From an uncultured bacterium (lineage in GTDB: Bacteria > Verrucomicrobiota > Verrucomicrobiia > Limisphaerales > UBA11358), in contig CAVPSH010000001.1 in the NCBI GenBank assembly GCA_963708305.1, positions 864,191 to 928,190 of the forward strand: a DNA stretch of 64,000 nucleotides. The letters run 5' to 3'. The notes under the pieces were generated by a model that was given only the letters and a program-made list of their open reading frames with translations, was not told where the DNA came from and ran no database searches. The first letter of the stretch is position 1; the number at the start of each line of letters is the position of its first letter. Below, piece by piece: positions 37,751 to 56,034 of the stretch. Position numbers and translations under genes: made by a program.

Positions 37751-40558
37751 TCAGTTGTTTTGACGGAGATCGGTTTTTTCAGTTAACGGAGATGGATGCG
37801 TTTGAGGCAGTTTGCCGAAATAGAAACTCAGCGTGCCGGAGTATTCACCGTGTGCCACAGCGCGCTGGCCCGAAGGCGCGACGACATCCGCCGCCTGAAA
37901 CTTGCTGCCGATCGGTGGAATCGCATTCAAAAATCCCAAACCACAGTGTGGCAGCACGGGGATAGTATTGCCGGCAAGATTGGCCGGCGGGAATTCCGGC
38001 GTCAGCACCTGTACAAAGGGCACGTTTTCCGGCACGACCGTGATGGTCCCTTCCGAGGTGTCGAGTTGCAGCCAACGCACGTCGGCGAAGCAGCCTTTGA
38101 ACTCCGGATAAATCCAGCCGCGCCAACCGGTGATGGTATTGTTGTAATTGTTCTGCCAAACGCCCAGCGTTACGCCCTGCCGGCGGTTTTTCCAGACGCG
38201 ATAGGGACCGTCGCCCAGCCATTGCTTCGATTTGACCAGATTTTCCGGGTAATCGAAAACGATGCCGAAATAATCGTTCGTGCCCTCGGCGTGGTAACGA
38301 TAATCGCACTGCAACCAGCCGTCATCGCGCAAGCGCCAGCTGATTTTATCCAGGGTGGAATTGGTCGTCGCCAGCCGCGGACCGCTGGCCAGCGAAAACG
38401 TTTTGCCGCCGCGTTCTACGCCGGTCAATTCGCCGGTTTGCGCGTCGAGGTGCGCCACCAGGTCGTGATTTTTCAACTCCACCACGCCGCTGTTTGTGCC
38501 GCCAAAGTTGTCGGCGCGGGCGACGATACCCGCGTCCGCCGGTAGTACTGCGTCCTGCCGCCGCGGCCAGACCCAGGTCCACAGTTCGCGGCCTTCGGGA
38601 TCCTCCACGCGCAGTGCCAATGCGTCGCCGATTGCGACTGGAATTTTTTTAAATTTCAGTTCCCCATTACCCCCGGGAGGAATTGAAGGTGATTTGAATA
38701 TTCCACTACTCACGACCGTAAAGCTTGAACCGGCTTCATTCGGTTGCGGAAAACGCCGCCATTCCCACATAAACCTGCACTGGCTCGCGTCGGTAAAGCT
38801 GAAATGGTTTTCCACTGTGAACGTAGAGTCGTTCTCCCGCGTCACCTGAATCGGGGACCAGATTTCCTTGATGGCGTAAAAGCTCGCCTCCCGTTGCCGA
38901 TACGGTCCCACAATGCCATCCGGGGCCTGATTCCCGGCGACATCAATCTCTCCGGTATCCGGCCGTTTGACGCCGTCATCGAGCAACGTCCAGATGAACC
39001 CGCCCCCGAGATATTTGCTTTGTTCCATCAAATTCCAAACGTCTGCCAGTCCGGCGCCCGCGCCGCCGTCGTAAAGCCCATGCACAAATTCCGTCGGCAT
39101 GAAAATGTATTTGGCGGGATCGTTCGTGTCGGCGAAGTAAGCGTTGCGATGGAAATAAACCGGATAGCCTGCGCAGGCGAGTTTGACAAAATCATAGGTC
39201 GGATAGTGAATGGTATCCACGCCATTGAAGGGAATCCACGGATGCAGCACCCGGCGGTGTTGCGGGTCGTACTGGCCAAACAGGTGGTCGAGGTTGGTGT
39301 TGAACCCGCCTTCGTTCCCGTTATCCCAAAAAAGTATGCACGGATGATTCACATCGCGCGTGACCATCTCCTTGACGAGTTTGGGACCGACCGTGTTGTC
39401 ATAATAATGGTGCCAGCCGGCCAGTTCATCGAGAACGTAAAGACCTTTTTCATCGCACAACTCAAGAAACCGGACGTCCGGTGGGTAATGAGACATGCGG
39501 ACGGCGTTCATGTTCGCGTCCTTGATGGTTTCGACGTCGAGCTTCTGCACCGCTTCGCTCAGGCAACGGCCCGAATCCGGCCAGAAAGAATGCCGGCACA
39601 CACCCTTGAGAATCACCCGATGGCCGTTGACATACAGTCCGTCGCCGTCGCGGACTTCCATGGTACGAAAACCAAACTGTTGCTGGAAGTGGTGAAGCAC
39701 CCGGTCACCGTCCTTGAGCCAGACCTGGGCCAGATAAAGATTCGGTGTTTCCGCCGACCAATCTCGGGGCGAAGCGACTTTGGTTTGGAGAACAACTTCC
39801 GCCTGACCCTCGGAAGCCGGGACCGGCTCGCTGAAAATCGGGCCAACCGGTTTGCCGTCCAAATCCGTGATTTGAGCGGCGACCGTCATTCCCGCATCGT
39901 TTTGGGAAATACCATCGGTAAAAACGTCCATTGTGAACGCACCGTCCGCTTGCGCGTCAACCGCCACGCGCTGAATGAATTGCGGCGGCACAGCCTCGAG
40001 ATAAACCGGACGATAAATGCCGCCGAACACCCAGTAATCCGCATCGCGTTCGGCACGGTTGACCGATTCATTGGCCGAATGTTTGGCGACGGTGACTTCC
40101 AGTTGGTTGGTTTCGCCAAATTTAACAAGTTTGGTCACTTCATACTGAAATTGGTAAAACCCGCCTTGATGGACCGGCCCGACCGATTGGCCGTTCAACT
40201 TCGCGTCCGTATCCGTCATGACGCCGTCAAAGACCAGAAAGACCCGCTGCCCTGCCCAGTTGGCCGGCACGGTGAAGTCGTGCCGGTAAAGCCCCTTTTC
40301 ATTCCAGGCCTCGGGCGGGTCCTTGCGATAATGCAACGTGCCGAAGCCGTGCATCTCCCATTGCGACGGCACGACCAGATTGGTCCAGTAACCGGACTGC
40401 GCCCCGGAGGTACACAGGAATTGCCACGGCACGCCATCATCCTTGCCCTGACCGGAAAGGTAAAGCTCCCCGGTTTCAGTGCCGGCCATCACCAACAGAG
40501 TCCGGCTGAAGAAAAACGCCAGCACGACGATCATCGCTCGAACGAATAACTTCCGCAT
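37751..40558 (-). CDS. GH2 family glycoside hydrolase with C-terminal beta-gal small-chain-like domain, secreted
   Basis: NAVRMSHYPPDVRFLELCDEKGLYVLDE and FWDNGNEGG are GH2 motifs. A signal peptide is present. The protein is 935 aa. Confidence 0.85.
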   Translation of the reverse strand: MRKLFVRAMIVVLAFFFSRTLLVMAGTETGELYLSGQGKDDGVPWQFLCTSGAQSGYWTNLVVPSQWEMHGFGTLHYRKDPPEAWNEKGLYRHDFTVPANWAGQRVFLVFDGVMTDTDAKLNGQSVGPVHQGGFYQFQYEVTKLVKFGETNQLEVTVAKHSANESVNRAERDADYWVFGGIYRPVYLEAVPPQFIQRVAVDAQADGAFTMDVFTDGISQNDAGMTVAAQITDLDGKPVGPIFSEPVPASEGQAEVVLQTKVASPRDWSAETPNLYLAQVWLKDGDRVLHHFQQQFGFRTMEVRDGDGLYVNGHRVILKGVCRHSFWPDSGRCLSEAVQKLDVETIKDANMNAVRMSHYPPDVRFLELCDEKGLYVLDELAGWHHYYDNTVGPKLVKEMVTRDVNHPCILFWDNGNEGGFNTNLDHLFGQYDPQHRRVLHPWIPFNGVDTIHYPTYDFVKLACAGYPVYFHRNAYFADTNDPAKYIFMPTEFVHGLYDGGAGAGLADVWNLMEQSKYLGGGFIWTLLDDGVKRPDTGEIDVAGNQAPDGIVGPYRQREASFYAIKEIWSPIQVTRENDSTFTVENHFSFTDASQCRFMWEWRRFPQPNEAGSSFTVVSSGIFKSPSIPPGGNGELKFKKIPVAIGDALALRVEDPEGRELWTWVWPRRQDAVLPADAGIVARADNFGGTNSGVVELKNHDLVAHLDAQTGELTGVERGGKTFSLASGPRLATTNSTLDKISWRLRDDGWLQCDYRYHAEGTNDYFGIVFDYPENLVKSKQWLGDGPYRVWKNRRQGVTLGVWQNNYNNTITGWRGWIYPEFKGCFADVRWLQLDTSEGTITVVPENVPFVQVLTPEFPPANLAGNTIPVLPHCGLGFLNAIPPIGSKFQAADVVAPSGQRAVAHGEYSGTLSFYFGKLPQTHPSPLTEKTDLRQNN

Positions 40559-40721
40559 AGGGCAATATTTGACCGGAGTGTTGTTTTAGACGATGGAAAG
40601 ATCAAGTCAGCACCGCCGACCGGCCACAACTCGCAAGGGTTTCGGCAAAAACCGCAAATCGGAAAGCAGTTTTTTCATTGTGCACTGGCGTCGGTGAAAC
40701 CTACGCTGACAACGTACCATA

Positions 40722-42161
40722 ATGGATCGCATCTCGGCCACTTACCTGATCGAAACACCGCTGCCGGTAGAAGTGGCGGCCGCCAGCCTGGCTGGCGAAC
40801 AATCCTCCGGCACGTTCGTCGCCGTGCCGGGTGAGACCGAGGAGTTGAAGCAACGTTTTGCCGCGCGGGTTGAGAAAATCACTCCGCTCGAAACGGTGAA
40901 CTCGCCCGCCCTGCCCGGAACGGAAGGCGGGGCGCGTGACTCCGTGCGCACCGTAACCCACCTTACGAAAAGCGGCGCGCAGAGGACTGACGCGCCCTAC
41001 CAGCGTGCGGAACTCGTCGTATCGTGGTCGGTCGAAAACATGGGGCACAATCTCCCGACGCTCGTCTCGACAATTCAAGGCAATCTCTACGAATTGTCTC
41101 AGTTTTCCGGGTTGAAGCTGATGGATTTGGAGTTACCGCCGTCGTTCGCGCAACATTTTCGCGGACCGAAATTCGGTGTCGCCGGGACACGCCAGTTGAC
41201 CGGCGTCCAGGGCCGGCCGCTCATCGGCACCATCATCAAGCCCAGCATCGGCCTGGCACCCGAACAAACCGCGGGGCTGGTCAAGATACTGGCCGAGGCG
41301 GATATAGACTTCATCAAAGATGATGAACTCATGGCCAATCCGCCGCACTCGCCGTTCGATGAACGCGTGGATGCCGTCATGCGCGTCCTCAACGGGCACG
41401 CCGACCGTACCGGCAAAAAAGTGATGTACGCTTTCAACCTCAGCGATGAACTGGACGCGATGTTGCGACACTATGAGAAAGTTGTTTCGGCCGAAGGCAC
41501 GGCGGCCATGGTGAGCCTGAACAGCGTTGGCTTTACGGGCGTGAAAAAAATATGCGATATCGGCGCGCTGGCGATTCACGGGCATCGCAACGGCTGGGGC
41601 ATGTTGAACCGGCATCCGTTGCTCGGTATTGAATTTCCGGCCTATCAAAAACTCTGGCGGCTGGCCGGGGTGGACCAGATTCACGTCAACGGCATCGGGA
41701 ACAAATTTTGGGAAAGTGACGATTCGGTGGTGCGTTCGATTGAATCCTGTTTGAAACCAATGTTTGGCGGAACTGCTTTCCCTTTCTCCCCGCGAGGAAC
41801 GAGCGGAGAGAGAGTCGGAGAGAGGGGCAATTTAATCAAAACGACCTCCTCTCCCCGGCCCTCTCCTCCTTTGAGGGAGGAGAGGGAGGGGCAGCGAACG
41901 GATTTTCTTTCTGTCCTGCCGGTTGTATCCTCCGGCCAATGGGGCGGCCAGGCGCCGGAGACGTTTCATCGGACGAAAACGGTGGACCTGCTCTACCTGG
42001 CCGGCGGCGGTATCATGGCGCATCCCGACGGCCCGGCGGCGGGTGTGCGTTCGCTTCGCAAATGGTGGGAGGCGGCGGTGGAAGGGCTGACGATGGAACA
42101 AGCTGCGAATAAATATCCTGAGTTAAAAAAGTCGCTAGAGAAGTTTGGAAAGAAAAAATGA
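40722..42161 (+). CDS. RuBisCO large-subunit-like protein (form IV RLP) carrying two apparent in-frame repeat insertions
   Basis: RuBisCO-fold blocks are present: LSTIQGNLYEL-like, GRPLIGTIIKPSIGL, DIDFIKDDELM, AIHGHRNG, DQIHVNGIGNKF, LPVVSSGQWGG and YLAGGGIMAHPDGPAAGVRSL. No small-subunit or prk gene is nearby. Confidence 0.85.
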   Translation: MDRISATYLIETPLPVEVAAASLAGEQSSGTFVAVPGETEELKQRFAARVEKITPLETVNSPALPGTEGGARDSVRTVTHLTKSGAQRTDAPYQRAELVVSWSVENMGHNLPTLVSTIQGNLYELSQFSGLKLMDLELPPSFAQHFRGPKFGVAGTRQLTGVQGRPLIGTIIKPSIGLAPEQTAGLVKILAEADIDFIKDDELMANPPHSPFDERVDAVMRVLNGHADRTGKKVMYAFNLSDELDAMLRHYEKVVSAEGTAAMVSLNSVGFTGVKKICDIGALAIHGHRNGWGMLNRHPLLGIEFPAYQKLWRLAGVDQIHVNGIGNKFWESDDSVVRSIESCLKPMFGGTAFPFSPRGTSGERVGERGNLIKTTSSPRPSPPLREEREGQRTDFLSVLPVVSSGQWGGQAPETFHRTKTVDLLYLAGGGIMAHPDGPAAGVRSLRKWWEAAVEGLTMEQAANKYPELKKSLEKFGKKK

Positions 42162-42163
42162 AA

Positions 42164-42257
42164 CACCCAACATCGAACATCCAACATCGAACATCCAATG
42201 AAAGCGCTTGGAGCGGGCAATTGGATGTTGGGCGTTCGATGTTGGATGTTGGATGTT
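42164..42257. repeat. long imperfect hairpin built from tandem CAACATC(C/G)-type short units, copy A
   Basis: Left arm cacccaacatcgaacatccaacatcgaacatccaat, a 20-nt loop, then right arm attggatgttgggcgttcgatgttggatgttggatgtt. It lies between the RLP and kinase genes. Confidence 0.75.
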
Positions 42258-42270
42258 TTCCCGTTCTCGC

Positions 42271-43635
42271 ATGAGCAAGCTCCTCCTCACCTTCTACGGC
42301 GACGATTTCACCGGCTCGACCGACGCACTCGAGCAACTCACGCTGGCCGGCATTCGCGCGGCTTTGTTCATCGAACCGACGACGACCATGCAACTAAAAC
42401 GTTTCCCCGGCCTTCAGGCGGTCGGTGTAGCCGGCCTGACCCGGTCGTTGCCGGCTGCCGCGATGGAAAGGGAATTACGTCCGGTGTTTAAAAAGCTCAA
42501 AGCCTTGGGCGCGCGGCATATTCATTACAAGGTTTGTTCCACGTTCGATTCGTTACCCGAAGTGGGCAGCATTGGACGCGCAATTGACGTGGGGATGAAA
42601 ATTTTTCATCCCCGTTTTGTGCCCTTGCTCGTTGCCGCACCATCGCTCGGACGTTACACAGTCTTTGGAAATCACTTTGCGCGCTTTGGCATCGGCAGCA
42701 ACGGCGAAATTCACCGGCTTGACCGACATCCGTCCATCAGCCGACATCCGGTCACGCCAATGACCGAGTCGGATCTGCGGCTGCACCTCGCCAAACAGAC
42801 ACGGAAGAAAATCGCCCTGTTTGATATCTTGAAGGTTGCATTGCCTGAAGTCGAAGCCCGCGCTGCGCTGAATAAAATTCTTGCCGGCAGCACCGATGTG
42901 ATTTTGTTCGACGCGCTCTGTCCGGAACATCTTGAGCGTGTCGGCGCATTGATTGACGCAGACGCCAGCGCGAAGCGCCCGTTGTTCTCCGTTGGCTCGT
43001 CAGGAATCGAGATGGCGCTGGCAGCGTTCTGGAAATCGGAGGGACGAGTTCCACGAGTCCGCAATCGAAAAGTCAGGGGCTCGCAGAGCTCGCCCCTCCG
43101 GGCGAAACAAATCCTCATCGGTTCCGGCAGTTGCTCGCCGGTGACGCGTAGTCAAATCGCCTGGGCGCTGAAACATGGCTTTGCCGAAGTCGCACTCGAC
43201 AGCGCGGCTTTGGTGTCACACAAAAAATCCGGAATGGAAATTCGACGCGCCACCGAAGCCGTGGCAAATCTCCTGCAAACCGGTCGCAGCGTCATGGTTC
43301 ACACGACCCCCGGTGGTTCTGTTGATCGGACAACAGCGAAATTAAAAGGCCGGACCGCGCAGATACTCGGCACGGCACTTGGCCACATTCTACGGAATGT
43401 GGTGGCGCGAAAGCCGGTGCGCCGGCTTTGTATTGCCGGCGGCGACACGTCGAGTTACGCCGCCCGCGCCCTGGGAATCGAGGCGTTGGAGATGATTGCG
43501 TCGCTGACGCCGGGCGCGCCGTTGTGCCGGGCGTTTGCGCCCGGCTCACCGGTGGACGACTGCGAAATCGTGTTCAAGGGCGGACAGGTCGGCGCTGAAA
43601 ATTATTTTGAAACCATAAAGCGCGGAAAGATTTGA
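42271..43635 (+). CDS. DUF1537 four-carbon acid-sugar kinase family protein (second copy)
   Basis: The ATG at 42271 gives MSKLLLTFYGDDFTGSTDAL, the family N-terminal motif. The C-terminal nucleotide-binding domain carries ..CIAGGDTS... The ORF extension from 42208 is translated hairpin DNA. Confidence 0.85.
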   Translation: MSKLLLTFYGDDFTGSTDALEQLTLAGIRAALFIEPTTTMQLKRFPGLQAVGVAGLTRSLPAAAMERELRPVFKKLKALGARHIHYKVCSTFDSLPEVGSIGRAIDVGMKIFHPRFVPLLVAAPSLGRYTVFGNHFARFGIGSNGEIHRLDRHPSISRHPVTPMTESDLRLHLAKQTRKKIALFDILKVALPEVEARAALNKILAGSTDVILFDALCPEHLERVGALIDADASAKRPLFSVGSSGIEMALAAFWKSEGRVPRVRNRKVRGSQSSPLRAKQILIGSGSCSPVTRSQIAWALKHGFAEVALDSAALVSHKKSGMEIRRATEAVANLLQTGRSVMVHTTPGGSVDRTTAKLKGRTAQILGTALGHILRNVVARKPVRRLCIAGGDTSSYAARALGIEALEMIASLTPGAPLCRAFAPGSPVDDCEIVFKGGQVGAENYFETIKRGKI

Positions 43636-43638
43636 TCT

Positions 43639-44298
43639 ATGAAACAAAAGAAACTGGGACTGGTCCACACTTCGGCCACGCTGGTGCCGGTGTTTGCGCA
43701 ATTGTGCAAGGCGAAGCTGCCGCAGGTGGAAGTCTTCAACATCGCTGATGACAGTCTAGTGAAAGGCATCATGGCCGCCGGCAGCCTGACGGCACAGATC
43801 TCGCGGCGCGTGGCGGGTTACTTGGAATCCGCCGAACTGGCGGGCGCGGATTACATCATGGTAACCTGTTCCTCCATTGGCCCGGCGGTGGAAGCGGCGG
43901 CCAAACTGATGGGTGTGCCGGTCCTGCGCGTGGATCAACCGATGGCTGACAAGGCGGTACAGATGGGAAAACGGATCGGCGTCATCGCTACCTTGCAAAC
44001 CACACTTGAGCCCACGGCGGATTTGGTCCAACGCCGGGCGCAAGCAGCTGGAAAAGAAGTTCAAATCAAGTCCCGGTTGTGCGAAGGGGCGTTCGACGCC
44101 TTGATGGGCGGTGATGCGGCCAAACACGACGCCATGGTGGCCGGTGCCTTAAGGGAGGTATCACAGCAGGTGGACGTGATCGTACTGGCCCAGGCCTCGA
44201 TGGCGCGCGTGGTGGAGAGTTTGGCTGAAGCAGACAAACGCGTGCCGATCCTGACCAGCCCGGGAATCGCGGTGGATTATCTGGCGACGGTGTTATGA
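43639..44298 (+). CDS. Asp/Glu/hydantoin-racemase superfamily protein
   Basis: 219 aa. It has two pseudo-symmetric halves, with ..IMVTCSSIG.. and ..VIVLAQASM.. at the positions of the catalytic Cys/Ser loops in this superfamily. Confidence 0.7.
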   Translation: MKQKKLGLVHTSATLVPVFAQLCKAKLPQVEVFNIADDSLVKGIMAAGSLTAQISRRVAGYLESAELAGADYIMVTCSSIGPAVEAAAKLMGVPVLRVDQPMADKAVQMGKRIGVIATLQTTLEPTADLVQRRAQAAGKEVQIKSRLCEGAFDALMGGDAAKHDAMVAGALREVSQQVDVIVLAQASMARVVESLAEADKRVPILTSPGIAVDYLATVL

Positions 44299-44305
44299 CC
44301 GAGGA

Positions 44306-44402
44306 AAACATCCAACAACCAACATCGAACATCGAACATCCAAGGGGCGTCGTTCGGACGGTACATTGGATATTGGGTGTTGGATGTTGGATGTTCGGTG
44401 TT
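44306..44402. repeat. long imperfect hairpin built from CAACATC(C/G)-type units, copy B
   Basis: Left arm aaacatccaacaaccaacatcgaacatcgaacatccaa, a loop, then right arm attggatattgggtgttggatgttggatgttcggtgtt. It lies between the racemase-like and BASS genes. Confidence 0.75.
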
Positions 44403-44419
44403 CCTCAAACCTGAATTAA

Positions 44420-45649
44420 ATGACTCTTTTTGGGAATTTTGTGGCGGTAGCCCTGGTCGTGGCACTGGCAATCGGCTTGCGTTTCATACCCAGGCTGCGC
44501 GGCTATCAGTTCACCGCCTGGATCATCGCGGCGGTGACGGCAGCGATGATTTATCCGGCGGCGTTCCTGAAATGGGGCAATCTGGACCTGAACAACAAAT
44601 GGCTCATCCTGTTGGTGGTGCAGACGGTGATGTTCGGGATGGGCACGCAGATGAGTCTCCGGGATTTTGCCGGTGTCGCCCGGTCCCCGCGCGGTGTCCT
44701 GGTTGGCACCCTTGGCCGTTTTACCGTGATGCCCCTGGCCGGCTGGGCACTGATCAAATTATTTCATTTCCCCGCCGAAATTGCCGCCGGCGTCATCCTG
44801 ATCGGTTCGTGCTCCAGTGGGCTGGCTTCAAATGTGATGGCATATCTGGCCCAGGCGAACCTGGCATTGTCGGTCACGATCACAGCGGTCACCACGTTGT
44901 TGGCGCCGATCATGACCCCGTTCTGGATGAAATTGCTGGCCGGCACGCTGGTCAAAATCAGCGCCTTCAAGATGATGATGGACATCATCGAGATTGTCCT
45001 CGTGCCGATCGGTGCGGCGCTGTTGCACGATTATCTCAAGCATGCCTCGGTTGCGGGCCGGAAAACGGTCCTGCTCATCGCGGCCATCGGCGCAGCCTGG
45101 CTGATATTCCTGATGGCGGGCGGCTGGTCTCTGCTAAAGGCAAACCTGGCGGACACGCCGCTCCAAATGGCGGGCGTGACCGGATTTTTATTGAGCGCAT
45201 TTGTCATCAGCGTGGTTTATCACCGGCTGACGCGCCGGTTTCCCCGTTTGGACCATTGGATGCCGCTGGCTTCGATGGCCGGGATTGTTTATTTCACGGC
45301 GGTGACGACGGCAGCCGGCCGGGACCATCTGCTCCAGATCGGCGGACTGCTGTTCATCGTGGCGGTGTTGCACAATACGACAGGCTACTTTTTGGGCTAC
45401 TGGCTGAGCCGCGCGACCGGTTTGGACAAAAATTCCGCGCGTTCAGTGGCGTTTGAAGTCGGTCTGCAAAACGGCGGCATGGCGTCGGGTCTGGCCGGCG
45501 CGATGGGCAAGCTCGGCACCGTGGGTCTGGCGGCGGCGATTTTCAGTCCATGGATGAACGTTTCCGGTTCGGTCCTGGCGAATTACTGGCGAAAGAAACC
45601 GGTCGGGGCTGTGGTTTGCGCCTCGCCGACCTGTCAACAACTCACATAA
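44420..45649 (+). CDS. bile acid:sodium symporter (BASS/SBF) family transporter
   Basis: GMGTQMSLRDF...MPLAGWAL...GSCSSGLASNVMAYLAQANLALSV is the SBF core. Multiple TM segments are present. Confidence 0.8.
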   Translation: MTLFGNFVAVALVVALAIGLRFIPRLRGYQFTAWIIAAVTAAMIYPAAFLKWGNLDLNNKWLILLVVQTVMFGMGTQMSLRDFAGVARSPRGVLVGTLGRFTVMPLAGWALIKLFHFPAEIAAGVILIGSCSSGLASNVMAYLAQANLALSVTITAVTTLLAPIMTPFWMKLLAGTLVKISAFKMMMDIIEIVLVPIGAALLHDYLKHASVAGRKTVLLIAAIGAAWLIFLMAGGWSLLKANLADTPLQMAGVTGFLLSAFVISVVYHRLTRRFPRLDHWMPLASMAGIVYFTAVTTAAGRDHLLQIGGLLFIVAVLHNTTGYFLGYWLSRATGLDKNSARSVAFEVGLQNGGMASGLAGAMGKLGTVGLAAAIFSPWMNVSGSVLANYWRKKPVGAVVCASPTCQQLT

Positions 45650-45651
45650 TC

Positions 45652-46935
45652 ATGTCAACCCAAGTTCTCCCACCGGCCACCTCCGAATCGGACGCGGCCA
45701 CCGTCACCCGGCAACAATGGAAATGGTCTGCGCTGGCGGGCATGGCTTCGTATCTGGATGCCGGCTCGATTGTCGCCCTTGGCGCCGGGCTGGCCTTGTT
45801 TCAAAGCCAGCTCCATTTGAGCAACAGCGCCGTCGGCGCCCTGGCCGCGATCGGACCCAACGCCATCGGTTGCGCCCTCGGTGCGTTCGGTGGCGGCTGG
45901 CTCGGCGACAAACTGGGACGCAAACGCATTTATCAATATGACCTTCTGGTGTATGCCGCCGGCATCCTGTGTATTGCGTTGTCGGTGAACGAGGCGATGC
46001 TGTTCATCGGAACTTTCGTTGTCGGTGTCGCAGTCGGCGCCGATGTTCCAACCTCGCTCGCTCTGGTCGGTGAATTGGCGCCGGCCAGGGCGCGCGGCAA
46101 ATTGCTCGGCTTCACCCAGGTGGCCTGGTGTCTGGGGCCAACCATCGTGCTCTGGCTCGCCGTATTGTTCGCGCCGCTGGGCCTCCTCGGTATCCGCATT
46201 ATTTTTCTGCACCTGCTGGTCGTCGCCCTGGTCACCTGGGCTTTGCGCCGCGGCCTGGCTGAATCAGCGCGCTGGGTGGCCGCCTCAACGTCGGCCCGGC
46301 AAAACGTGCGCGCGCTCTTTTCCGGCGCCAATCTGCGAGCCCTGGTGTGGACCGCCACCATCTATTTGTTTTGGAATCTGGCCGCCGGCACTGCCGGGAT
46401 TTTCAATCCTTACTTCATCAAAACACTTCACGCCGCCAGCCAGGCTGCGAGCGTGGGAATGTACAGCTCGGCCTTCGTCATCGCCATGATCGTCGCCGTG
46501 ACAGTCTTCATGCCTTACTCCGATCGCAATTACGCAACGCGGAAAAGGTTGTGGGGCGTGGGCGCCCTCATGCAAATCGTGGCTTATGGACTGTTTCTCG
46601 TCCTGCCTTTTAATATCCCGACGATCATCACCAACATCCTGTTGTTCGCCGCCGGCGGGGCTTTGGCCGGTGAGGCCTTCTACAAAGTGTTCAGCCAGGA
46701 ACTCTTTCCCACCATGCTACGCGGGACTGCGCAAGGCATCACTTTCGGCGTGGCCCGGACCTTGCTGGGTATCTGGAGCTTTTTCGTGCCGGCGCTGGCA
46801 AAAACCGGGATTGGTCCGGTTGCCGGGCTGCTGACCTTGTTCCTGATCATCAGCGGTGCTGTTGGATTCTTTTTCATGCCCGATACGTCCGGCAAAACTT
46901 TGGAGCAAATCGAAGTGGAGCGCGCCCGCACATGA
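45652..46935 (+). CDS. MFS transporter (sugar/acid porter-like)
   Basis: The ATG at 45652. GWLGDKLGRKRIY is the MFS loop 2-3 motif. The hydrophobicity suggests 12 TM segments. Confidence 0.85.
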   Translation: MSTQVLPPATSESDAATVTRQQWKWSALAGMASYLDAGSIVALGAGLALFQSQLHLSNSAVGALAAIGPNAIGCALGAFGGGWLGDKLGRKRIYQYDLLVYAAGILCIALSVNEAMLFIGTFVVGVAVGADVPTSLALVGELAPARARGKLLGFTQVAWCLGPTIVLWLAVLFAPLGLLGIRIIFLHLLVVALVTWALRRGLAESARWVAASTSARQNVRALFSGANLRALVWTATIYLFWNLAAGTAGIFNPYFIKTLHAASQAASVGMYSSAFVIAMIVAVTVFMPYSDRNYATRKRLWGVGALMQIVAYGLFLVLPFNIPTIITNILLFAAGGALAGEAFYKVFSQELFPTMLRGTAQGITFGVARTLLGIWSFFVPALAKTGIGPVAGLLTLFLIISGAVGFFFMPDTSGKTLEQIEVERART

Positions 46936-49682
46936 GTTCGTCAGACCTGAATCAACGCATCCGCATCTCACATCTGCGCTGCGAATACCTCGTGGCTCCG
47001 CTGGGCATTGATGAACCGGCACCGCGCCTGAGCTGGGCCATCGAGTCGAACCGCGGCGGTGCGCGGCAGGTGGCTTACCGCATTTGGGTCGCCAGCACAC
47101 CAGGAAAACTTGCCACCCGCAAGGGCGATTCCTGGGACAGCGGGCGCGTCGAGAGCAATCAAACGACGCAGGTCGTCTATGCCGGCCGGCCATTGCGTTC
47201 GCGCGACGTGTGCCACTGGCGCGTCGAGGTCTGGGATGAAACCGGCAAGAATGCCCGCTCGAAACCTTCGTTCTGGACGATGGGGTTGTTGAAAAAATCC
47301 GACTGGCACGCGCGCTGGATTGCCGCCAATCCCGAAATCATCAGTCGCGACCCGGACGCGATGGCGCCGACGCTGACGGACCCGGGCACGCCGGCCTGTT
47401 TCCGCAAGGAATTCAAAATTGCCGGCGCGGTGAAACGGGCCACGCTTTACGCCAGCGCCCGCGGCCTGTTTGAGTTGCGTCTCAACGGCCGGCGCGTTGG
47501 CGAAGACGTCTTCGCGCCGGAATGGACCGATTACGACAAGCGTATTCACTACCGCACTTACGACGTCACAAAGTTGATTGACCGGGATCGAAATGTCCTT
47601 GGCGCCATTCTCGGCGACGGCTGGTGGAGCGGCTATGTCGGCTGGCAGGAGACGCGCGGACGTTATGGCAGCCTCGAAAACAGCCTGCTGGTCCAACTGG
47701 AATTGGAATTGGCCGACGGCAAACGCGCTTTGGTCGGTACTGACAACACCTGGACCTGCAACACCGGCCCGATTCTCAGTTCCGATTTTATGATGGGCGA
47801 AACTTACGACGCCCGCCGCGAATGCCGTGGCTGGGATTCGGTTAAATTTTCCGGCAAAAACTGGCTCCCGGCTCGGAGCGTGGCTGCGCCTCGCGTGTGG
47901 CTGGTCGCCCAACGTTCCGAACCGGTGCGTAGCACGGAAACCATCGCGCCAGTTTCGGTGAGCGAAATCCGCCCTGGCATTTTCATCTACGACCTGGGCC
48001 AGAACATCACCGGCTGGGTCCGGTTGCGGGTCAAGGCGCCGGCCGGCACGCGCATCCAGTTTCGGCATGGCGAACGACTCAATCCTGACGGCACGCTTTA
48101 CACCGGGAACCTCCGTCGGGCCAGGGCCACCGACGTTTACATTTGCAAGGGCGGCGGCCCGGAAATCTGGGAACCGCATTTCACCTTTCACGGATTCCAA
48201 TACGTCGAACTGACCGGCCTGCCATCTGCACCCGGCAAGGCCGCGGTCACCGGTTGCGCGATTCACTCCGCGATGACGCCCGCCGGCTGTTTTGAATGTT
48301 CCCATGCCGGCGTGAACCGGCTTTGGTTGAACGGCCTCTGGTCCCAACGCGACAATTTCCTCAGTGTGCCCACCGACTGCCCGCAACGCGACGAACGCCT
48401 CGGCTGGATGGGCGATGCACAGGTGTTCCTCCGCACCGCCAGTTACAACATGGATGTCGCGGCATTTTTCACGAAGTGGATGATTGATGTCGAGGACGCC
48501 CAGACGTCAGATGGCATTTTTCCCGACACCGCACCGCGCCTGCGCGAGGGTAAGAATTTCGTCGGGCTGGATGGAATATGCGGCGCGGCCGGCTGGGCTG
48601 ACGCCGGCATCATCGTGCCGTGGACGATGTGGCGTGTTTACGGCGACAGACGAATTATTGAGCGGCATTGGCCGGCGATGACCAAATGGCTCGACTGGAT
48701 TGAACAGCACAATCCCGACGGATTGCGCACGCACGACCTCGGCAACAACTACGGCGACTGGCTCTGCATTCCCAGCGACACCACCTTCCGGACGCATTCG
48801 CCGATGAAAAACCTCCTGGCGACGGCCTACTGGGCCGACGATGCGGCCAGGATGGCCCGGATGGCAGGCGAAATCGGTCGCGAGGTGGAGGCAAAACGGT
48901 TTCGGGCGATGTTCGAAAAAGTGCGCGCCGCGTTTCAAAAGAAATTCCTCTCCGAAGACGGACGGTTGACGGTTGAGACCCAAACGGCCTACCTGCTCGC
49001 GCTCGCCTTCAACCTGTTGCCGGATAATGTGCGTGCCCGCGCTGCTGAACATCTCGTTGAAAACATCAAATCGTTGGACTGGCACCTGAGCACAGGGTTC
49101 ATCGGCATCAGTCATCTCAACCCGCAACTGACGCTGGCGGGCCGGGCTGATGTTGCCTACCGGCTGTTGCTGCGCGACGATTATCCGTCGTGGCTTTATC
49201 CGGTGAAACATGGTGCGACAACGATTTGGGAACGCTGGAACGGTTGGACGAAAGAGCATGGCTTCTTCAATCCGCAGATGAATTCGTTCAACCATTACTC
49301 GCTCGGCTCAGTGGGTGAATGGCTGTTCCGGCACGTGGCGGGCATTGAACTCGATCCCGACGTGCCCGGCTTTCAACAATTTCTACTGCGCCCGTTTATC
49401 GGAGGTGGCCTCAGTTTCGCCCGGGCGTATTACCGCACCATGCACGGCGAAATTGCCAGTGACTGGAAACGCACTGGAAAGAAACTCACCTGGACCATCC
49501 ATGTTCCGCCCAATACCACGGCCCGCGTCTCGGTGCCGAGCGAACCCGGAACGCCCGTGACCGAAAGCGGCGTGCCCGTTGAAAAAGCCGAAGGTTTGAA
49601 TGTCATCGGCCGCGACGGACGGTTTCTCGTCTGTGACGCGGAATCCGGAACCTACAAATTCGTGAGTAGCTGGAAAGATTAA
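46932..49682 (+). CDS. GH78 alpha-L-rhamnosidase (no obvious signal peptide)
   Basis: LRCEYLVAPLGIDEPAPRLSW...AYRIWVAS and DCPQRDERLGWMGDAQVF are GH78 signatures. Its start overlaps the MFS stop (ATGA). Confidence 0.9.
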   Translation: MSSSDLNQRIRISHLRCEYLVAPLGIDEPAPRLSWAIESNRGGARQVAYRIWVASTPGKLATRKGDSWDSGRVESNQTTQVVYAGRPLRSRDVCHWRVEVWDETGKNARSKPSFWTMGLLKKSDWHARWIAANPEIISRDPDAMAPTLTDPGTPACFRKEFKIAGAVKRATLYASARGLFELRLNGRRVGEDVFAPEWTDYDKRIHYRTYDVTKLIDRDRNVLGAILGDGWWSGYVGWQETRGRYGSLENSLLVQLELELADGKRALVGTDNTWTCNTGPILSSDFMMGETYDARRECRGWDSVKFSGKNWLPARSVAAPRVWLVAQRSEPVRSTETIAPVSVSEIRPGIFIYDLGQNITGWVRLRVKAPAGTRIQFRHGERLNPDGTLYTGNLRRARATDVYICKGGGPEIWEPHFTFHGFQYVELTGLPSAPGKAAVTGCAIHSAMTPAGCFECSHAGVNRLWLNGLWSQRDNFLSVPTDCPQRDERLGWMGDAQVFLRTASYNMDVAAFFTKWMIDVEDAQTSDGIFPDTAPRLREGKNFVGLDGICGAAGWADAGIIVPWTMWRVYGDRRIIERHWPAMTKWLDWIEQHNPDGLRTHDLGNNYGDWLCIPSDTTFRTHSPMKNLLATAYWADDAARMARMAGEIGREVEAKRFRAMFEKVRAAFQKKFLSEDGRLTVETQTAYLLALAFNLLPDNVRARAAEHLVENIKSLDWHLSTGFIGISHLNPQLTLAGRADVAYRLLLRDDYPSWLYPVKHGATTIWERWNGWTKEHGFFNPQMNSFNHYSLGSVGEWLFRHVAGIELDPDVPGFQQFLLRPFIGGGLSFARAYYRTMHGEIASDWKRTGKKLTWTIHVPPNTTARVSVPSEPGTPVTESGVPVEKAEGLNVIGRDGRFLVCDAESGTYKFVSSWKD

Positions 49683-49705
49683 TCCCAATAAAAGAGAATC
49701 GTCCT

Positions 49706-51406: not shown

Positions 51407-51493
51407 GTTGCGAAGCGGCGGCGAACTTCAATCCATGCGAAATCAAACCATGAAATTTCCCGTAAAAAAAAACTGGCATATTGCGCCGTCTGG

Positions 51494-52606
51494 TTGGCAG
51501 CGCTGGCGGTTACAACTTGTCCAATTGGCGGCCACGGAGCGGATGCCACGAACGCAACGGCGAATCCGTGTCAGCCTTTGGACGCGAAGACGCTCGGCGA
51601 ATGGTCGGCGCCGTTTCGCAACTGGCAATACTGGCCAACGCACGTCATCCCGGCCAGCCCACCGATTCCGGGCGCGACCAACATCATCGGCACGGACATT
51701 CCGACGGTTTATCAGATTCCCGGTGACAATAAATGGTACATGAGTTTCGTCGCGTTCGACGGCGCTGGCTACCAGTCCTGTGCGGCCGAGAGCACGGATT
51801 TGATTCATTGGGGCAGCTATCGGCTGGCGATGGGTTACGGGCCGGCAGGCGAATTTGATCATGGCGGCTGTACCATCGGTGGATTTTTACTGGAATCCTA
51901 CGACCTCAAAGCGCCACGCGTGCTCAAGAAACGCGACGGAAAGTTCTGGACGCTTTACGGCGCGTATGCCCAGCAAGGCGGCTACGAACTTCATCCCGAC
52001 GGGCAAGGTCTGGCCGTGAGTGATGACGGTTTGATCTGGCGCCGGGCGCAAGACGGGCCGGCGCTTTCCATCCATGACCCCGACTGTGGCGATTGGGAAA
52101 ACAATCGTATTTACATGCCGTGGCTCCTGGAATACCGCGGCCGGTTCTTCGACTTCTACAACGCCGCGCACAAAAACCACGAACAAACCGGCGTCGCGTT
52201 TTCAACCGATCTGACCCATTGGATTCATTACCCGGCGAACCCGGTCATTCGCAACCGGCCCGGCGGTTATGATGCCGGGTTTTGTTCCGATCCGAAGGTG
52301 TATCGGGACGGTGATCACTGGACGATGTTCTATTTCGGCGTTGGGCACGGCACGGCGAGCATCATGATTGCATTTTCACGCGATTTGATGCACTGGACTT
52401 CCGATCCGGACCCGCTTTACAAGGGAGGTGGCAATCCCAGCGGATTGGACAAGCAGTACGCCCACAAGACCTCCCTGGTTTACAATCCCGGGAACGACAC
52501 GTTTTACCTGTTTTACTGTGCGGTGCCTGGAAAAAAAGGCGACATCACCGGCGGGCGCGGCATCGGCTTGATCACCAGTAAACCACTGACAGATGTTTCA
52601 CCGTAG
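51494..52606 (+). CDS. five-bladed beta-propeller glycoside hydrolase-like protein (GH43/32/130-type fold); signal peptide separated by a frameshift
   Basis: Propeller-like repeats are present (WYMSFVAFDG, FWTLYGAY, FFDFYNAA, WTMFYFGV, FYLFYCAV). The ATG at 51450 plus an A9 tract at 51464-51472 would encode MKFPVKKKLAYCAVWLAALAVTTCPIGG if the tract were A10. Confidence 0.7.
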   Translation: MAALAVTTCPIGGHGADATNATANPCQPLDAKTLGEWSAPFRNWQYWPTHVIPASPPIPGATNIIGTDIPTVYQIPGDNKWYMSFVAFDGAGYQSCAAESTDLIHWGSYRLAMGYGPAGEFDHGGCTIGGFLLESYDLKAPRVLKKRDGKFWTLYGAYAQQGGYELHPDGQGLAVSDDGLIWRRAQDGPALSIHDPDCGDWENNRIYMPWLLEYRGRFFDFYNAAHKNHEQTGVAFSTDLTHWIHYPANPVIRNRPGGYDAGFCSDPKVYRDGDHWTMFYFGVGHGTASIMIAFSRDLMHWTSDPDPLYKGGGNPSGLDKQYAHKTSLVYNPGNDTFYLFYCAVPGKKGDITGGRGIGLITSKPLTDVSP

Positions 52607-55885: not shown

Positions 55886-56034
55886 TGGGTCAAAATATGT
55901 CCGTGGGCCCGGATTGTCGAGAATGCGAGACTCAACAAAACTTTTGTCTTTTTTGACAAGCTGTGTGAAATATTTTTACGCGCGGGCAATAAAGCCTATG
56001 ATGAGACCCGATTTTGGTCCAATCACTGAAAGAT

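What the first reader, a model, noticed from the sequence alone, without database searches (positions are those of the whole stretch)
40722..46935. RuBisCO-like protein + DUF1537 kinase + racemase-like enzyme + two secondary transporters: candidate undescribed acid-sugar pathway
A form-IV RuBisCO-like protein heads a same-strand, tightly spaced cluster. It retains the GTIIKPSIG and DFIKDDE blocks. Behind it come a DUF1537 kinase, an Asp/Glu-racemase-superfamily protein, a BASS transporter and an MFS transporter. Translationally coupled to these are a signal-less GH78 and then a DUF5060-type hydrolase. RLP plus DUF1537-kinase adjacency is the known signature of the oxidative D-apionate routes, where the kinase is OiaK and the RLP acts as 3-oxo-isoapionate-4-phosphate decarboxylase or transcarboxylase/hydrolase. 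Several things differ here. The racemase-like gene and the BASS/MFS importers belong to no described version. No apiose dehydrogenase or lactonase is adjacent. The only PdxA-family (ApnO-like) gene lies 20 kb away in another operon. The surrounding hydrolases (GH127, GH95, GH78, GH28, BNR) match rhamnogalacturonan-II-type substrates, whose branched or acidic sugars (apiose, aceric acid, Dha) have incompletely known catabolism. This could be a new variant of the apionate pathway or a pathway for another acid sugar.
Basis: partly seen in the sequence, partly recalled or inferred. Interest (0 to 1): 0.8.

Follow-up and report, generated by a model that had tools for sequence, protein, structure and literature searches.

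The report
Candidate aceric acid catabolism module
A RuBisCO-like enzyme, a sugar-acid kinase, an odd one-cysteine "racemase-fold" enzyme and a small-acid importer form a four-gene unit kept together in at least three to four bacterial phyla; it most often sits beside the enzyme that frees aceric acid from plant pectin, so it is probably the undescribed route for eating that rare sugar.

Summary
Window 40722-52606 (+) encodes RLP, DUF1537 kinase, Asp/Glu-racemase-fold protein ("RACE"), BASS, MFS, a signal-less GH78, a GH140-type apiosidase and a GH137-like protein, inside an RG-II degradation locus.

The conserved unit is four genes, RLP-kinase-RACE-BASS. In 65 related loci from Verrucomicrobiota, Bacteroidota and Planctomycetota with enough flank, the kinase is present in 64, RACE in 64 and BASS in 61.

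No homologue of the apionate-forming enzymes of canonical oiaX loci occurs in the window or in any of the 80 loci. The commonest neighbour is a GH127 (22 of 50 full-flank loci, 13 directly upstream). It passes NCBIfam's "aceric acid hydrolase" cutoff in Pedobacter, Arcicella and Opitutaceae. GH140 is a neighbour in only 3 of 50.

The RLP forms its own clade: 53% identity to OiaT-like proteins and 49% to OiaX. It keeps the carboxylase-type residues that OiaX has lost.

Best explanation (inferred, untested): imported L-aceric acid is isomerised to its 2-ketose, the methyl homologue of 3-oxo-isoapionate. It is then phosphorylated and cleaved by the RLP, probably to 3-phosphoglycerate and L-lactate.

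This is a new variant of a known kind, testable in cultured Pedobacter heparinus or Rufibacter tibetensis.

The parts
37751..40558 (-). Secreted GH2, transcribed divergently from the RLP operon; candidate beta-galactosidase that exposes aceric acid on RG-II side chain B (inference)
   Evidence: Pfam GH2 domains. Best NCBIfam match is an exo-beta-1,4-galactosidase model, 792 bits, below the 1700 cutoff. Signal-peptide-like N-terminus. Orthologues at 56-70% identity sit divergently upstream of the RLP in L001, L008, L011, L014 and L047.
40722..42161 (+). RuBisCO-like protein of a distinct clade beside OiaT and OiaX; predicted to act on the phosphorylated 2-ketose of aceric acid
   Evidence: PF00016. 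OiaX model 494 bits, and 515 for the insertion-free homologue P0030, against a cutoff of 700. Own clade: 74% identity inside it, 53% to OiaT-like, 49% to OiaX. The equivalents of E60, N123, K175, K201, D203, E204, H294, R295, H327, K334 and S379 are kept, as in the OiaT-like clade. OiaX has D, G, Q and G/C at four of these positions. Two in-frame palindromic insertions.
42160..42262 (+). REP-like hairpin filling the RLP-kinase gap
   Evidence: RNA fold -50.7 kcal/mol, z = -7.3. A second copy lies at 44312-44397.
42271..43635 (+). DUF1537 (four-carbon acid-sugar) kinase, OiaK-like; predicted to phosphorylate the new primary hydroxyl of the ketose
   Evidence: SBD_N plus NBD_C. OiaK model 429 bits against a cutoff of 700. 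41% identical to the kinase of a PGAP oiaX locus, with the alignment starting at 42271. Present in 64 of 65 related loci.
43639..44298 (+). Asp/Glu-racemase-fold enzyme with one catalytic cysteine (RACE); predicted aceric acid aldose-ketose isomerase
   Evidence: PF01177. AF2 model pLDDT 81, TM 0.75-0.80 to Glu/Asp/hydantoin racemases and arylmalonate decarboxylase at 13-21% identity. C77 in TCSS is invariant; the second Cys motif is replaced by an invariant AQASM. Present in 64 of 65 loci, at 51-88% identity across phyla.
44312..44397 (+). Second copy of the REP-like hairpin, in the RACE-BASS gap
   Evidence: arms on both strands; none expected by chance.
44420..45649 (+). BASS/SBF-family secondary transporter; predicted importer of the free acid sugar
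   Evidence: PF01758. PanS (ketopantoate/pantoate transporter) model 201 bits against a cutoff of 400. Present in 61 of 65 loci.
45652..46935 (+). MFS transporter, paired with the GH78 rather than with the core; candidate importer of a rhamnoside
   Evidence: Pfam MFS_1 / Sugar_tr. Found in 9 related loci, directly next to the GH78 orthologue in 7 of them.
46932..49682 (+). Cytoplasmic (signal-less) GH78 alpha-L-rhamnosidase
   Evidence: Five GH78 Pfam domains. N-terminus MSSSDLNQ... has no signal peptide. Orthologue present in 23 of 87 loci.
49706..51406 (+). GH140-type apiosidase-like protein with a signal peptide
   Evidence: DUF5060 + Apiosidase + DUF5605. N-terminus. A neighbour of the module in only 3 loci.
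51494..52606 (+). GH137-like beta-L-arabinofuranosidase-like protein; last gene of the same-strand run
   Evidence: NCBIfam BT0996-type model, N-terminal part, 107 bits.
56014..58077 (+). GH127, aceric-acid-hydrolase type; the predicted source of the module's substrate
   Evidence: NCBIfam NF049879 'aceric acid hydrolase', 923.8 bits over the full length, cutoff 950. Signal-anchor N-terminus. Its relatives next to the RLP in other genomes score 964-1209.

Best explanation
The core RLP-kinase-RACE-BASS is a self-contained module for catabolism of L-aceric acid (3-C-carboxy-5-deoxy-L-xylose), the branched acid sugar of RG-II side chain B.

Proposed sequence:
1. A secreted GH127 frees aceric acid.
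2. BASS imports it.
3. RACE, a one-cysteine member of the Asp/Glu racemase fold, moves the carbonyl from C1 to C2. The product is HOCH2-CO-C(OH)(COO-)-CH(OH)-CH3, which is 3-oxo-isoapionate with one extra methyl group.
4. The OiaK-like kinase phosphorylates the new primary hydroxyl.
5. The RLP removes the beta-keto-acid carboxyl group. Because it keeps the full carboxylase residue set, as the OiaT-like clade does, it probably re-adds CO2 and hydrolyses, giving 3-phosphoglycerate and L-lactate.

The route is redox-neutral, which fits the absence of any dehydrogenase in the module.

Shown: the gene content, its conservation, the link to aceric acid hydrolase genes, the RLP residue pattern, and the RACE fold and motif.

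Inferred: the substrate, the order of steps, the RACE reaction and the RLP products.
For: 1. The module is conserved. Of 65 non-redundant loci from Verrucomicrobiota, Bacteroidota and Planctomycetota with at least 5.5 kb downstream, the kinase is present in 64, RACE in 64 and BASS in 61. It is also present in Acidobacteriota contigs and on a Rufibacter plasmid. It often stands alone among unrelated genes.

2. The commonest neighbour is GH127, in 22 of 50 loci with 9 kb on both sides. It lies directly upstream on the same strand in 13 loci, with gaps of about 7-46 nt. These GH127s pass NCBIfam's equivalog cutoff of 950 for aceric acid hydrolase: L049 1209, L069 1177, L076 1167, L030 964. The window's own copy scores 924. 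They carry signal peptides, so an importer is needed.

3. Among 72,556 plasmids, one Rufibacter tibetensis plasmid is the top hit for the RLP (65%), for RACE (66%) and for aceric acid hydrolase (70%).

4. No dehydrogenase is conserved with the core. Related RLP-kinase pairs carry one as third gene: an SDR in L006 and a 6PGDH-C-like enzyme in L007 and L088. No homologue of the apionate-locus dehydrogenases, TPI or RpiB is in the window or in the 80 loci. Aceric acid is already an aldehyde-acid, so isomerisation alone yields the beta-keto acid.

5. Aceric acid has no primary hydroxyl. The kinase's nearest named models (OiaK, 3-oxo-tetronate kinase, D-threonate kinase) act on terminal hydroxyls, so isomerisation must come first (chemistry, inference).

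6. The RLP and kinase are nearest to OiaX/OiaT and OiaK. The RLP shares E60, N123, H327 and S379 equivalents with the OiaT-like clade, not with OiaX.

7. In Bacteroidota, a SASA acetylesterase follows the module in 12 loci. Aceric acid is reported to be acetylated in RG-II (preprint 10.64898/2026.03.13.711244).

8. A RACE subfamily member in Deinococcus lies between a GH38 and a class II aldolase, which is a sugar context and not an amino-acid one.
Against: - There is no biochemical evidence for any step.
- No member of the Asp/Glu racemase superfamily is known to catalyse aldose-ketose isomerisation. C2-H of aceric acid is alpha to the aldehyde, not to the carboxylate that this fold normally exploits.
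- 28 of 50 full-flank loci have no GH127 within 10 kb. In the window itself the GH127 lies about 14 kb downstream of the RLP stop, while an apiosidase is in the operon.
- The OiaT identity of the comparison clade rests on JGI names and taxonomy (Xanthobacteraceae), not on the characterised sequence.
- The loop after S379 (WGG) matches OiaX, not OiaT-like, so the RLP product is uncertain.
- In two loci an FAD/Fe-S glycolate/D-lactate-oxidase-type gene is adjacent. That would suit glycolate or D-lactate better than L-lactate.
- Carter et al. 2018 could not be read here. Statements about OiaT/OiaX chemistry are from memory and from a secondary citation (PMC6302742).
Confidence: 0.55

Rival explanations
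1. A variant D-apionate route. The RLP and kinase act on 3-oxo-isoapionate itself, which is made elsewhere or imported, and RACE does an accessory step.
For: The best family matches are OiaX and OiaK. JGI names two clade members OiaT. A GH140-type apiosidase is in the window's operon and in three related loci. In two loci an adjacent glycolate/D-lactate-oxidase-type gene would suit glycolate, the OiaT product.
Against: Both scores are well below the equivalog cutoffs. Identity is only 49-53% to the OiaX and OiaT-like clades, and the clade is separate. None of the 80 loci, nor the window, has the Gfo/Idh/MocA, 6PGDH-C-like, 642-aa, TPI or RpiB genes of apionate loci. GH140 is a neighbour in 3 of 50 loci against 22 of 50 for GH127. 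A candidate transketolase route for apiose is already in the window and often adjoins the module.
Confidence: 0.12
2. The module acts on a different small hydroxy-acid: another RG-II or pectin product, or a substrate unrelated to pectin. RACE would work as a true epimerase at a carbon next to a carboxylate.
For: About half of the loci show no glycoside hydrolase nearby. The fold's known chemistry is proton exchange alpha to a carboxylate. BASS is PanS-like, and two Pontibacter loci carry a ketopantoate-reductase-family gene upstream. Other RLP-kinase pairs clearly serve other, unknown acids.
Against: An RLP substrate needs a phosphorylated hydroxy-ketone, and no oxidoreductase is conserved to make one. 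RACE lacks the second base needed for racemisation. The GH127 linkage occurs in several different gene orders across three phyla.
Confidence: 0.2
3. The substrate is aceric acid, but the RLP is a plain decarboxylase like OiaX. It would give a 5-deoxypentulose 1-phosphate that an aldolase encoded elsewhere splits into DHAP and acetaldehyde, as in the 5-deoxyribose 'DHAP shunt'.
For: The only NCBIfam RLP model that matches well is the decarboxylase OiaX. The WGG loop after S379 is shared with OiaX. Aceric acid is a 5-deoxypentofuranose, like 5-deoxyribose (chemistry).
Against: No aldolase is conserved with the module. N123 and H327 equivalents, lost in OiaX, are invariant here. The module often stands alone, which implies that its products are central metabolites.
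Confidence: 0.25

Closest known systems
Oxidative D-apionate pathways: ApsD, ApnL, ApnO, OiaK, then OiaX (decarboxylase) or OiaT (transcarboxylase/hydrolase). Carter et al. 2018, Nat Chem Biol; cited from memory and via PMC6302742.
   Same: An adjacent RLP plus DUF1537 kinase. These are the nearest families by HMM and identity. The presumed substrate is an alpha-hydroxy-beta-keto acid phosphorylated on the carbon next to the ketone. Both serve a branched sugar of RG-II.
   Different: Separate RLP clade (49-53% identity), below the equivalog cutoffs. No dehydrogenase, lactonase, oxidoisomerase or downstream isomerases. The third enzyme is a non-redox racemase-fold protein. Transport is by a BASS carrier instead of an ABC system. 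The genomic partner is aceric acid hydrolase, not apiose-binding proteins.
5-deoxyribose / methylthioribose salvage (kinase, isomerase, then an aldolase or an RLP)
   Same: A 5-deoxypentofuranose is turned into a ketose 1-phosphate and then cleaved. RLPs take part in the methionine-salvage versions.
   Different: Those kinases and isomerases belong to other families (MtnK/MtnA types). Here the sugar carries a carboxyl branch, so the RLP would decarboxylate rather than deprotonate. MtnW models score only 115-163 bits, against cutoffs of 409-514.
Asp/Glu racemase superfamily (glutamate, aspartate, hydantoin and allantoin racemases; arylmalonate decarboxylase; maleate isomerase)
   Same: The fold (TM 0.75-0.80), the Pfam family and the first catalytic cysteine motif.
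   Different: 13-21% identity to every solved member. The second cysteine is replaced by an invariant AQASM. Arylmalonate decarboxylase keeps the opposite cysteine. The genomic context is sugar-acid catabolism.
PanS-type BASS transporters (ketopantoate/pantoate/pantothenate)
   Same: The family, and a cargo that is a small branched hydroxy-acid.
   Different: 201 bits against a cutoff of 400. Placed in a pectin-sugar operon.

Membership tests
[quoted passage not shown] | Score at or above the curated equivalog cutoff (700 bits) | tested here: not met
   494 bits for the window protein and 515 for the insertion-free homologue P0030. PGAP-named OiaX proteins are about 40-43% identical by tblastn.
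OiaX | Active-site pattern of PGAP-named OiaX: D, G, Q and G/C at the RuBisCO E60, N123, H327 and S379 positions | tested here: not met
   The window clade has E, N, H and S at those positions, invariant or nearly so in 83 sequences.
OiaT (3-oxo-isoapionate-4-phosphate transcarboxylase/hydrolase) | Membership of the clade that holds the characterised Xanthobacter enzyme | tested here: not met
   The window clade is separate from the Microvirga/Ancylobacter/Xanthobacteraceae clade (53% identity; NJ tree). The characterised sequence itself was not available, and the clade label rests on JGI names.
OiaT | Retention of the RuBisCO carboxylation and hydrolysis residues | tested here: met
   The same residues as the OiaT-like clade at the E60, N123, K175, K201, D203, E204, H294, R295, H327, K334 and S379 positions. 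The loop after S379 differs: WGG against SAK/R.
D-apionate oxidative pathway as a gene set | Apiose dehydrogenase, apionolactonase and apionate oxidoisomerase encoded with the RLP and kinase | tested here: not met
   tblastn with the Gfo/Idh/MocA, 642-aa and 6PGDH-C-like proteins of L088 and L007 gives no hit in the window. In the 80 loci there are only about 22%-identical Gfo/Idh/MocA paralogues.
OiaK (3-oxo-isoapionate kinase, NF042436) | Score at or above 700 bits | tested here: not met
   429 bits for the window and 442 for Rufibacter. The DUF1537 two-domain architecture is met.
Bona fide RuBisCO (forms I-III) | Curated model cutoffs, and K177 in the KPK motif | tested here: not met
   Form III model 222-233 bits against 497. 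The motif is KPS, not KPK.
MtnW/YkrW DK-MTP-1-P enolase | Curated model cutoff | tested here: not met
   115-163 bits against cutoffs of 409-514.
Asp/Glu racemase superfamily | Pfam PF01177 and the two-domain alpha/beta fold | tested here: met
   82.9 bits against a cutoff of 31. Foldseek probability 1.00 and TM 0.75-0.80 to racemases.
Two-base racemases of that superfamily | A catalytic cysteine (or threonine) in each domain | tested here: not met
   Only C77 is conserved. The second position is AQASM in 72 module-linked sequences and in 3 outliers.
GH127 aceric acid hydrolase (NF049879) | Score at or above 950 bits | tested here: inconclusive
   The window copy scores 923.8 over the full length, just below the cutoff. 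Copies next to the RLP in L049, L069, L076 and L030 pass with 964-1209, and L045 scores 923.
BASS / PanS transporter | PF01758, and the PanS equivalog cutoff (400 bits) | tested here: inconclusive
   Pfam is met (111 bits). The PanS model gives 201 bits, which is not met. The cargo cannot be tested here.

The most novel reading that the evidence does not exclude
A three-enzyme, redox-neutral route takes the plant rare sugar L-aceric acid straight into glycolysis.

- A cofactor-free, one-cysteine member of the Asp/Glu racemase fold acts as an aldose-ketose isomerase, a reaction type not known for that superfamily.
- A third functional clade of OiaT/OiaX-type RuBisCO-like proteins carries out decarboxylation, re-carboxylation and hydrolysis on a six-carbon substrate. 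The products are 3-phosphoglycerate and L-lactate.
Probability: 0.3. Interest if true: 0.85.

Novelty: new variant of a known kind. Interest (0 to 1): 0.75.

Why it matters
- How bacteria consume aceric acid is not described in any paper I could search. A March 2026 RG-II preprint lists only the apiose enzymes as known rare-sugar catabolism.
- NCBI's 2026 models name the hydrolase that frees aceric acid but give this RLP and this racemase-fold protein only generic names.
- The module is abundant. Both searches hit the 8000-candidate ceiling, with 8000 RLP and 7617 racemase-fold relatives passing, and the nearest are from soil and freshwater Verrucomicrobiota, Bacteroidota, Planctomycetota and Acidobacteriota.
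- It occurs in cultured strains, so the hypothesis can be tested directly.
- If true, it would add a new substrate class for RuBisCO-like proteins.
- It would probably add a new reaction for the Asp/Glu racemase fold.
- It would fill a gap in the carbon budget of pectin degradation.

Tried and rejected
- Carter et al. 2018 and Zhang et al. 2016 could not be opened by DOI or PMC id. The OiaT/OiaX chemistry is therefore cited from memory and from PMC6302742.
- The sigma-70 promoter and terminator scan of 40400-52900 gave chance-level counts and says nothing about operon structure.
- I looked for a conserved aldolase, lactate or glycolate dehydrogenase, or regulator next to the core. An FAD/Fe-S oxidase occurs in only 2 loci and a ketopantoate-reductase-family gene in 2. 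An SDR occurs in 10 loci, a Gfo/Idh/MocA gene in 18 (Bacteroidota only, about 22% identical to the apiose-dehydrogenase candidate) and an FGE-sulfatase-like gene in 9. None is part of the core.
- I considered that the PdxA/DUF1537 operon at 18206-24919 supplies the missing oxidation for an apionate route. I rejected this: its models are of the D-threonate type and it comes with a pyruvate aldolase. It adjoins the module in only a few loci.
- I considered Dha or Kdo as the RLP substrate. I rejected this on chemistry: neither has a primary hydroxyl next to a ketone.
- I searched the window for further copies of the two in-frame RLP insertions and found none.

Full report
**1. What is there**

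The + strand from 40722 to 52606 carries eight genes in one direction:

| Gene | Coordinates | Note |
|---|---|---|
| RuBisCO-like protein (RLP) | 40722-42161 | |
| DUF1537 kinase | ORF from 42208 | likely start ATG 42271 |
| Asp/Glu-racemase-family protein ("RACE") | 43639-44298 | 219 aa |
| BASS/SBF transporter | 44420-45649 | |
| MFS transporter | likely 45652-46935 | |
| GH78 | 46932-49682 | no signal peptide |
| DUF5060 + Apiosidase + DUF5605 protein | 49706-51406 | GH140 type |
| GH137-like protein | 51494-52606 | |

- A secreted GH2 is transcribed divergently at 37751-40558.
- The window as a whole is a rhamnogalacturonan-II (RG-II) degradation locus: GH95, two GH2, GH29, GH141, three GH78, GH28, GH127 and a BNR protein.
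- The closest relatives are from Limisphaerales (Verrucomicrobiota).

**2. The conserved unit is four genes**

- The RLP belongs to a very large family. The search reached its 8000-hit ceiling, and the best 120 hits are 71-85% identical.
- Contigs carrying relatives show RLP-kinase-RACE-BASS in Verrucomicrobiota and Acidobacteriota. The same order occurs on a plasmid of the cultured Bacteroidota strain Rufibacter tibetensis.
- A scan of one genome per species gave 80 loci. They come from Verrucomicrobiota, Planctomycetota and Bacteroidota. Cultured examples include Pedobacter heparinus, Pontibacter, Mucilaginibacter, Echinicola and Fontivita pretiosa.
- Among 65 non-redundant loci with at least 5.5 kb downstream of the RLP start, the kinase is present in 64, RACE in 64 and BASS in 61.
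- RACE is the best-conserved protein of the set, at 51-88% identity across phyla. It is not a passenger.
- The MFS gene is found in only 9 loci. In 7 of them it sits next to the GH78 orthologue, so it belongs to a separate MFS-GH78 pair.
- In many genomes the four genes stand alone among unrelated genes. This suggests that the transporter plus three enzymes suffice to reach central metabolism.

**3. What the neighbours say**

I mapped the window's proteins onto all loci and also clustered all ORFs without prior labels. After the core, the commonest neighbour is a GH127.

- It is present in 22 of 50 loci that have at least 9 kb on both sides. GH78 is in 14, the upstream GH2 in 12, GH140 in 3 and PdxA in 2.
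- In 13 loci (12 Bacteroidota, one Verrucomicrobiota) the GH127 lies directly upstream on the same strand, with gaps of about 7-46 nt.
- In Opitutaceae it is upstream with the GH78 and/or MFS in between. In one Phycisphaerae locus it is on the other strand.
- These GH127 proteins pass NCBIfam's equivalog cutoff (950 bits) for "aceric acid hydrolase": 1209, 1177, 1167 and 964 bits. One scores 923, and the window's own GH127 (56014-58077) scores 924.
- They carry signal peptides. Aceric acid would therefore be released outside the cytoplasm and would need an importer.
- Among 72,556 plasmids, the same Rufibacter plasmid is the single best hit for the RLP (65%), for RACE (66%) and for aceric acid hydrolase (70%).
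- In Bacteroidota a SASA-family acetylesterase follows the module in 12 loci. A 2026 preprint notes earlier reports that aceric acid is acetylated in RG-II.

**4. Why it is not the described apionate route**

- The RLP and kinase match the OiaX and OiaK models best, but far below the curated cutoffs: 494/515 and 429 bits against 700.
- A PGAP-named oiaX locus in Rhizobium (L088) contains NanR, oiaX, the kinase, triose-phosphate isomerase, RpiB, a 6PGDH-C/KARI-like dehydrogenase, an ABC transporter and a Gfo/Idh/MocA oxidoreductase. The Salipiger oiaX locus (L089) shows oiaX with NanR, the same ABC transporter set, a Gfo/Idh/MocA oxidoreductase, a ~600-aa hypothetical and, at the locus edge, a DUF1537 kinase. 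It shows no TPI, RpiB or 6PGDH-C-like gene within the stretch read.
- A Microvirga locus (L007) has an RLP, the kinase, the same dehydrogenase type, a Gfo/Idh/MocA gene and a 642-aa protein.
- None of these accessory proteins has a homologue in the window. In the 80 loci, only the Gfo/Idh/MocA queries hit distant (~22% identical) paralogues and the sugar-binding protein matched in 4 loci.
- Other proteobacterial RLP-kinase pairs also carry a dehydrogenase as the third gene, for example an SDR in Rhizobium etli.
- The theme is therefore: an enzyme that makes a beta-keto acid, then the kinase, then the RLP. Here the third enzyme is not an oxidoreductase.
- The window also holds a candidate non-oxidative apiose route at 8816-13560: a fucose-isomerase-like protein, a split transketolase and a GlpK-like kinase. 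That cluster adjoins the module in about nine loci. Its assignment to apiose rests on my memory of Carter et al. and was not tested.

**5. The RLP**

- In a trimmed alignment the window's clade is about 74% identical within itself.
- It is 53% identical to the Microvirga/Ancylobacter/Xanthobacteraceae clade. JGI names members of that clade 3-oxoisoapionate-4-phosphate transcarboxylase/hydrolase.
- It is 49% identical to PGAP-named OiaX. It forms its own branch in the tree.
- At the RuBisCO catalytic positions it carries E60, N123, K175, K201, D203, E204, H294, R295, H327, K334 and S379 equivalents. The OiaT-like clade carries the same set.
- OiaX has Asp, Gly, Gln and Gly/Cys at the E60, N123, H327 and S379 positions.
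- All three clades have Ser in place of K177.
- The loop after S379 (WGG) is shared with OiaX.
- I read this as favouring, not proving, a carboxylation-competent enzyme of the OiaT type.

**6. RACE**

- Sequence search finds only weak matches to solved structures. The best is a Pyrococcus hydantoin-racemase-like protein at E 2e-5.
- An AlphaFold model (pLDDT 81) matches glutamate, aspartate, hydantoin and allantoin racemases and arylmalonate decarboxylase. TM scores are 0.75-0.80 at 13-21% identity.
- In 72 module-linked sequences the first catalytic motif, T76-C77-S78-S79, is invariant. The second cysteine motif is replaced by an invariant L-A-Q-A-S-M.
- Other invariant residues are H10, T11, S12, N34, D37, S39, R57, E85, R97, D99, T118, T122, H163, D164 and R190.
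- Most of this signature, including C77-S78 and A-Q-A-S-M, also occurs in members at about 47-53% identity in other contexts:
  - In a Deinococcus plasmid, RACE lies between a GH38 mannosidase and a class II aldolase.
  - In a Croceibacterium plasmid, RACE plus an MFS lie next to a GH140-like gene. The same plasmid carries a GH127-like-RLP-kinase set elsewhere.
- A one-base active site cannot racemise. It could shuttle a proton between adjacent carbons.

**7. Proposed mechanism (inference)**

- L-aceric acid is OHC-CHOH-C(OH)(COO-)-CHOH-CH3.
- It has no primary hydroxyl, whereas the kinase's nearest characterised relatives act on terminal hydroxyls. It is already at the oxidation level of an oxo-acid.
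- Moving the carbonyl to C2 gives HOCH2-CO-C(OH)(COO-)-CH(OH)-CH3. This differs from 3-oxo-isoapionate, HOCH2-CO-C(OH)(COO-)-CH2OH, by one methyl group.
- Phosphorylation of C1 then gives the motif that OiaT and OiaX act on.
- Decarboxylation gives an enediolate. Re-carboxylation at C2 followed by hydrolysis would give 3-phosphoglycerate plus lactate.
- Lactate keeps the L configuration of C4, so it would be L-lactate. The overall balance is C6H10O6 + H2O.
- The alternative is plain decarboxylation to a 5-deoxypentulose 1-phosphate. That would need an aldolase encoded elsewhere.
- A variant order is also possible: anomeric phosphorylation first, then isomerisation, as in 5-deoxyribose salvage.
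- The rest of the window's operon fits the stub of side chain B, AceA-Rha-Api. GH127 removes aceric acid, the MFS and the cytoplasmic GH78 handle a rhamnoside, and GH140 handles apiose.

**8. What is known**

- Full-text searches found no description of aceric acid catabolism and no link between aceric acid and RuBisCO-like proteins. They also found no description of a DUF1537/RLP module with a racemase-fold enzyme.
- The 2026 RG-II preprint cites only the apiose enzymes as described bacterial rare-sugar catabolism.
- Subscription journals are not covered by these searches, so prior description cannot be fully excluded.

**9. Limits**

- All functional statements are inferences from gene context, family models, residue patterns and chemistry.
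- The OiaT label of the comparison clade is indirect.
- The tree is neighbour-joining with midpoint rooting.
- About half of the loci show no GH127 within 10 kb.
- Co-occurrence across whole genomes was not tested.

Noticed in passing
window 18206-24919 (- strand): A second acid-sugar operon: SSF transporter, Fe-alcohol dehydrogenase, DHDPS-family pyruvate aldolase, PdxA (also matches the D-threonate-4-phosphate dehydrogenase model), a DtnK-like DUF1537 kinase and an AraC regulator. It fits a route for Dha (3-deoxy-D-lyxo-heptulosaric acid): the aldolase gives pyruvate plus a four-carbon aldehyde-acid, reduction gives D-threonate (the stereochemistry works out), and then kinase and PdxA-type oxidative decarboxylation give DHAP. 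A full-text search for 'heptulosaric' together with 'threonate' found no paper. The operon adjoins the RLP module in L025, L026, L028, L029 and L042.
   Followed up: partly
window 8816-13560 (+ strand): A fucose-isomerase-like protein, a split transketolase (N and C subunits) and a GlpK-like FGGY kinase, upstream of GH95. This is a candidate non-oxidative (transketolase) apiose route. The same cluster lies just upstream of GH127 and the RLP module in about nine Opitutaceae and other loci. The assignment rests on memory of Carter et al. 2018.
   Followed up: partly
window 10245-11081: The transketolase N-subunit gene is disrupted. Compared with the L030 orthologue, the reading frame shifts near 10716, 10855 and 10868, and there are in-frame stops at 10857 and 10863. 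This is either a pseudogene or assembly indels.
   Followed up: partly
window 40915-41000 and 41780-41905 (inside the RLP gene): Two in-frame insertions relative to the 414-416 aa homologues, each holding inverted repeats. The second encodes 'GERVGERGN...SSPRPSPPLREERE'. Similar peptides sit at the second site in other Limisphaerales-type RLPs (P0003, P0006, P0018) and at the first site in P0001. DNA matches occur only in the RLP genes of L009, L011 and L014. They look like palindromic elements tolerated in surface loops.
   Followed up: partly
window 42160-42262 and 44312-44397: Two copies of a REP-like hairpin built from (CCAACATCGAACAT)-type repeats fill the RLP-kinase and RACE-BASS gaps (RNA fold -50.7 kcal/mol, z = -7.3). 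In related loci these genes abut or overlap. The hairpins might act as mRNA-stability or attenuation elements.
   Followed up: partly
L005 and L090 (Croceibacterium plasmid NZ_CP156083): A more distant version (RLP 51% identical) is split. A GH127-like gene (not of the aceric-acid-hydrolase type, 87 bits), the RLP, the kinase and a GDSL esterase are at one site. A RACE homologue (53%) plus an MFS sit next to a GH140-like gene at another site on the same plasmid.
   Followed up: partly
L006 (Rhizobium etli plasmid) and L007 (Microvirga plasmid): Other RLP + DUF1537 kinase pairs carry different third enzymes and transporters: an SDR with a KDG permease, and a 6PGDH-C-like dehydrogenase with an ABC system. 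This suggests several further uncharacterised acid-sugar routes built on the same two-enzyme core.
   Followed up: no
L049, L054, L069 and other Pedobacter loci: A long same-strand cluster: SBP_bac_1, Gfo/Idh/MocA, MaoC-like dehydratase, MFS, GH106, GH127, RLP, kinase, RACE, BASS, SASA esterase, DUF5703. The role of the first four genes is unknown.
   Followed up: no
L092 (Deinococcus sp. QL22 plasmid): A RACE-subfamily member with most of the one-cysteine signature, including C77-S78 and A-Q-A-S-M, lies between a GH38 alpha-mannosidase and a class II fructose-bisphosphate-type aldolase. This hints that the subfamily acts on sugars more generally.
   Followed up: no
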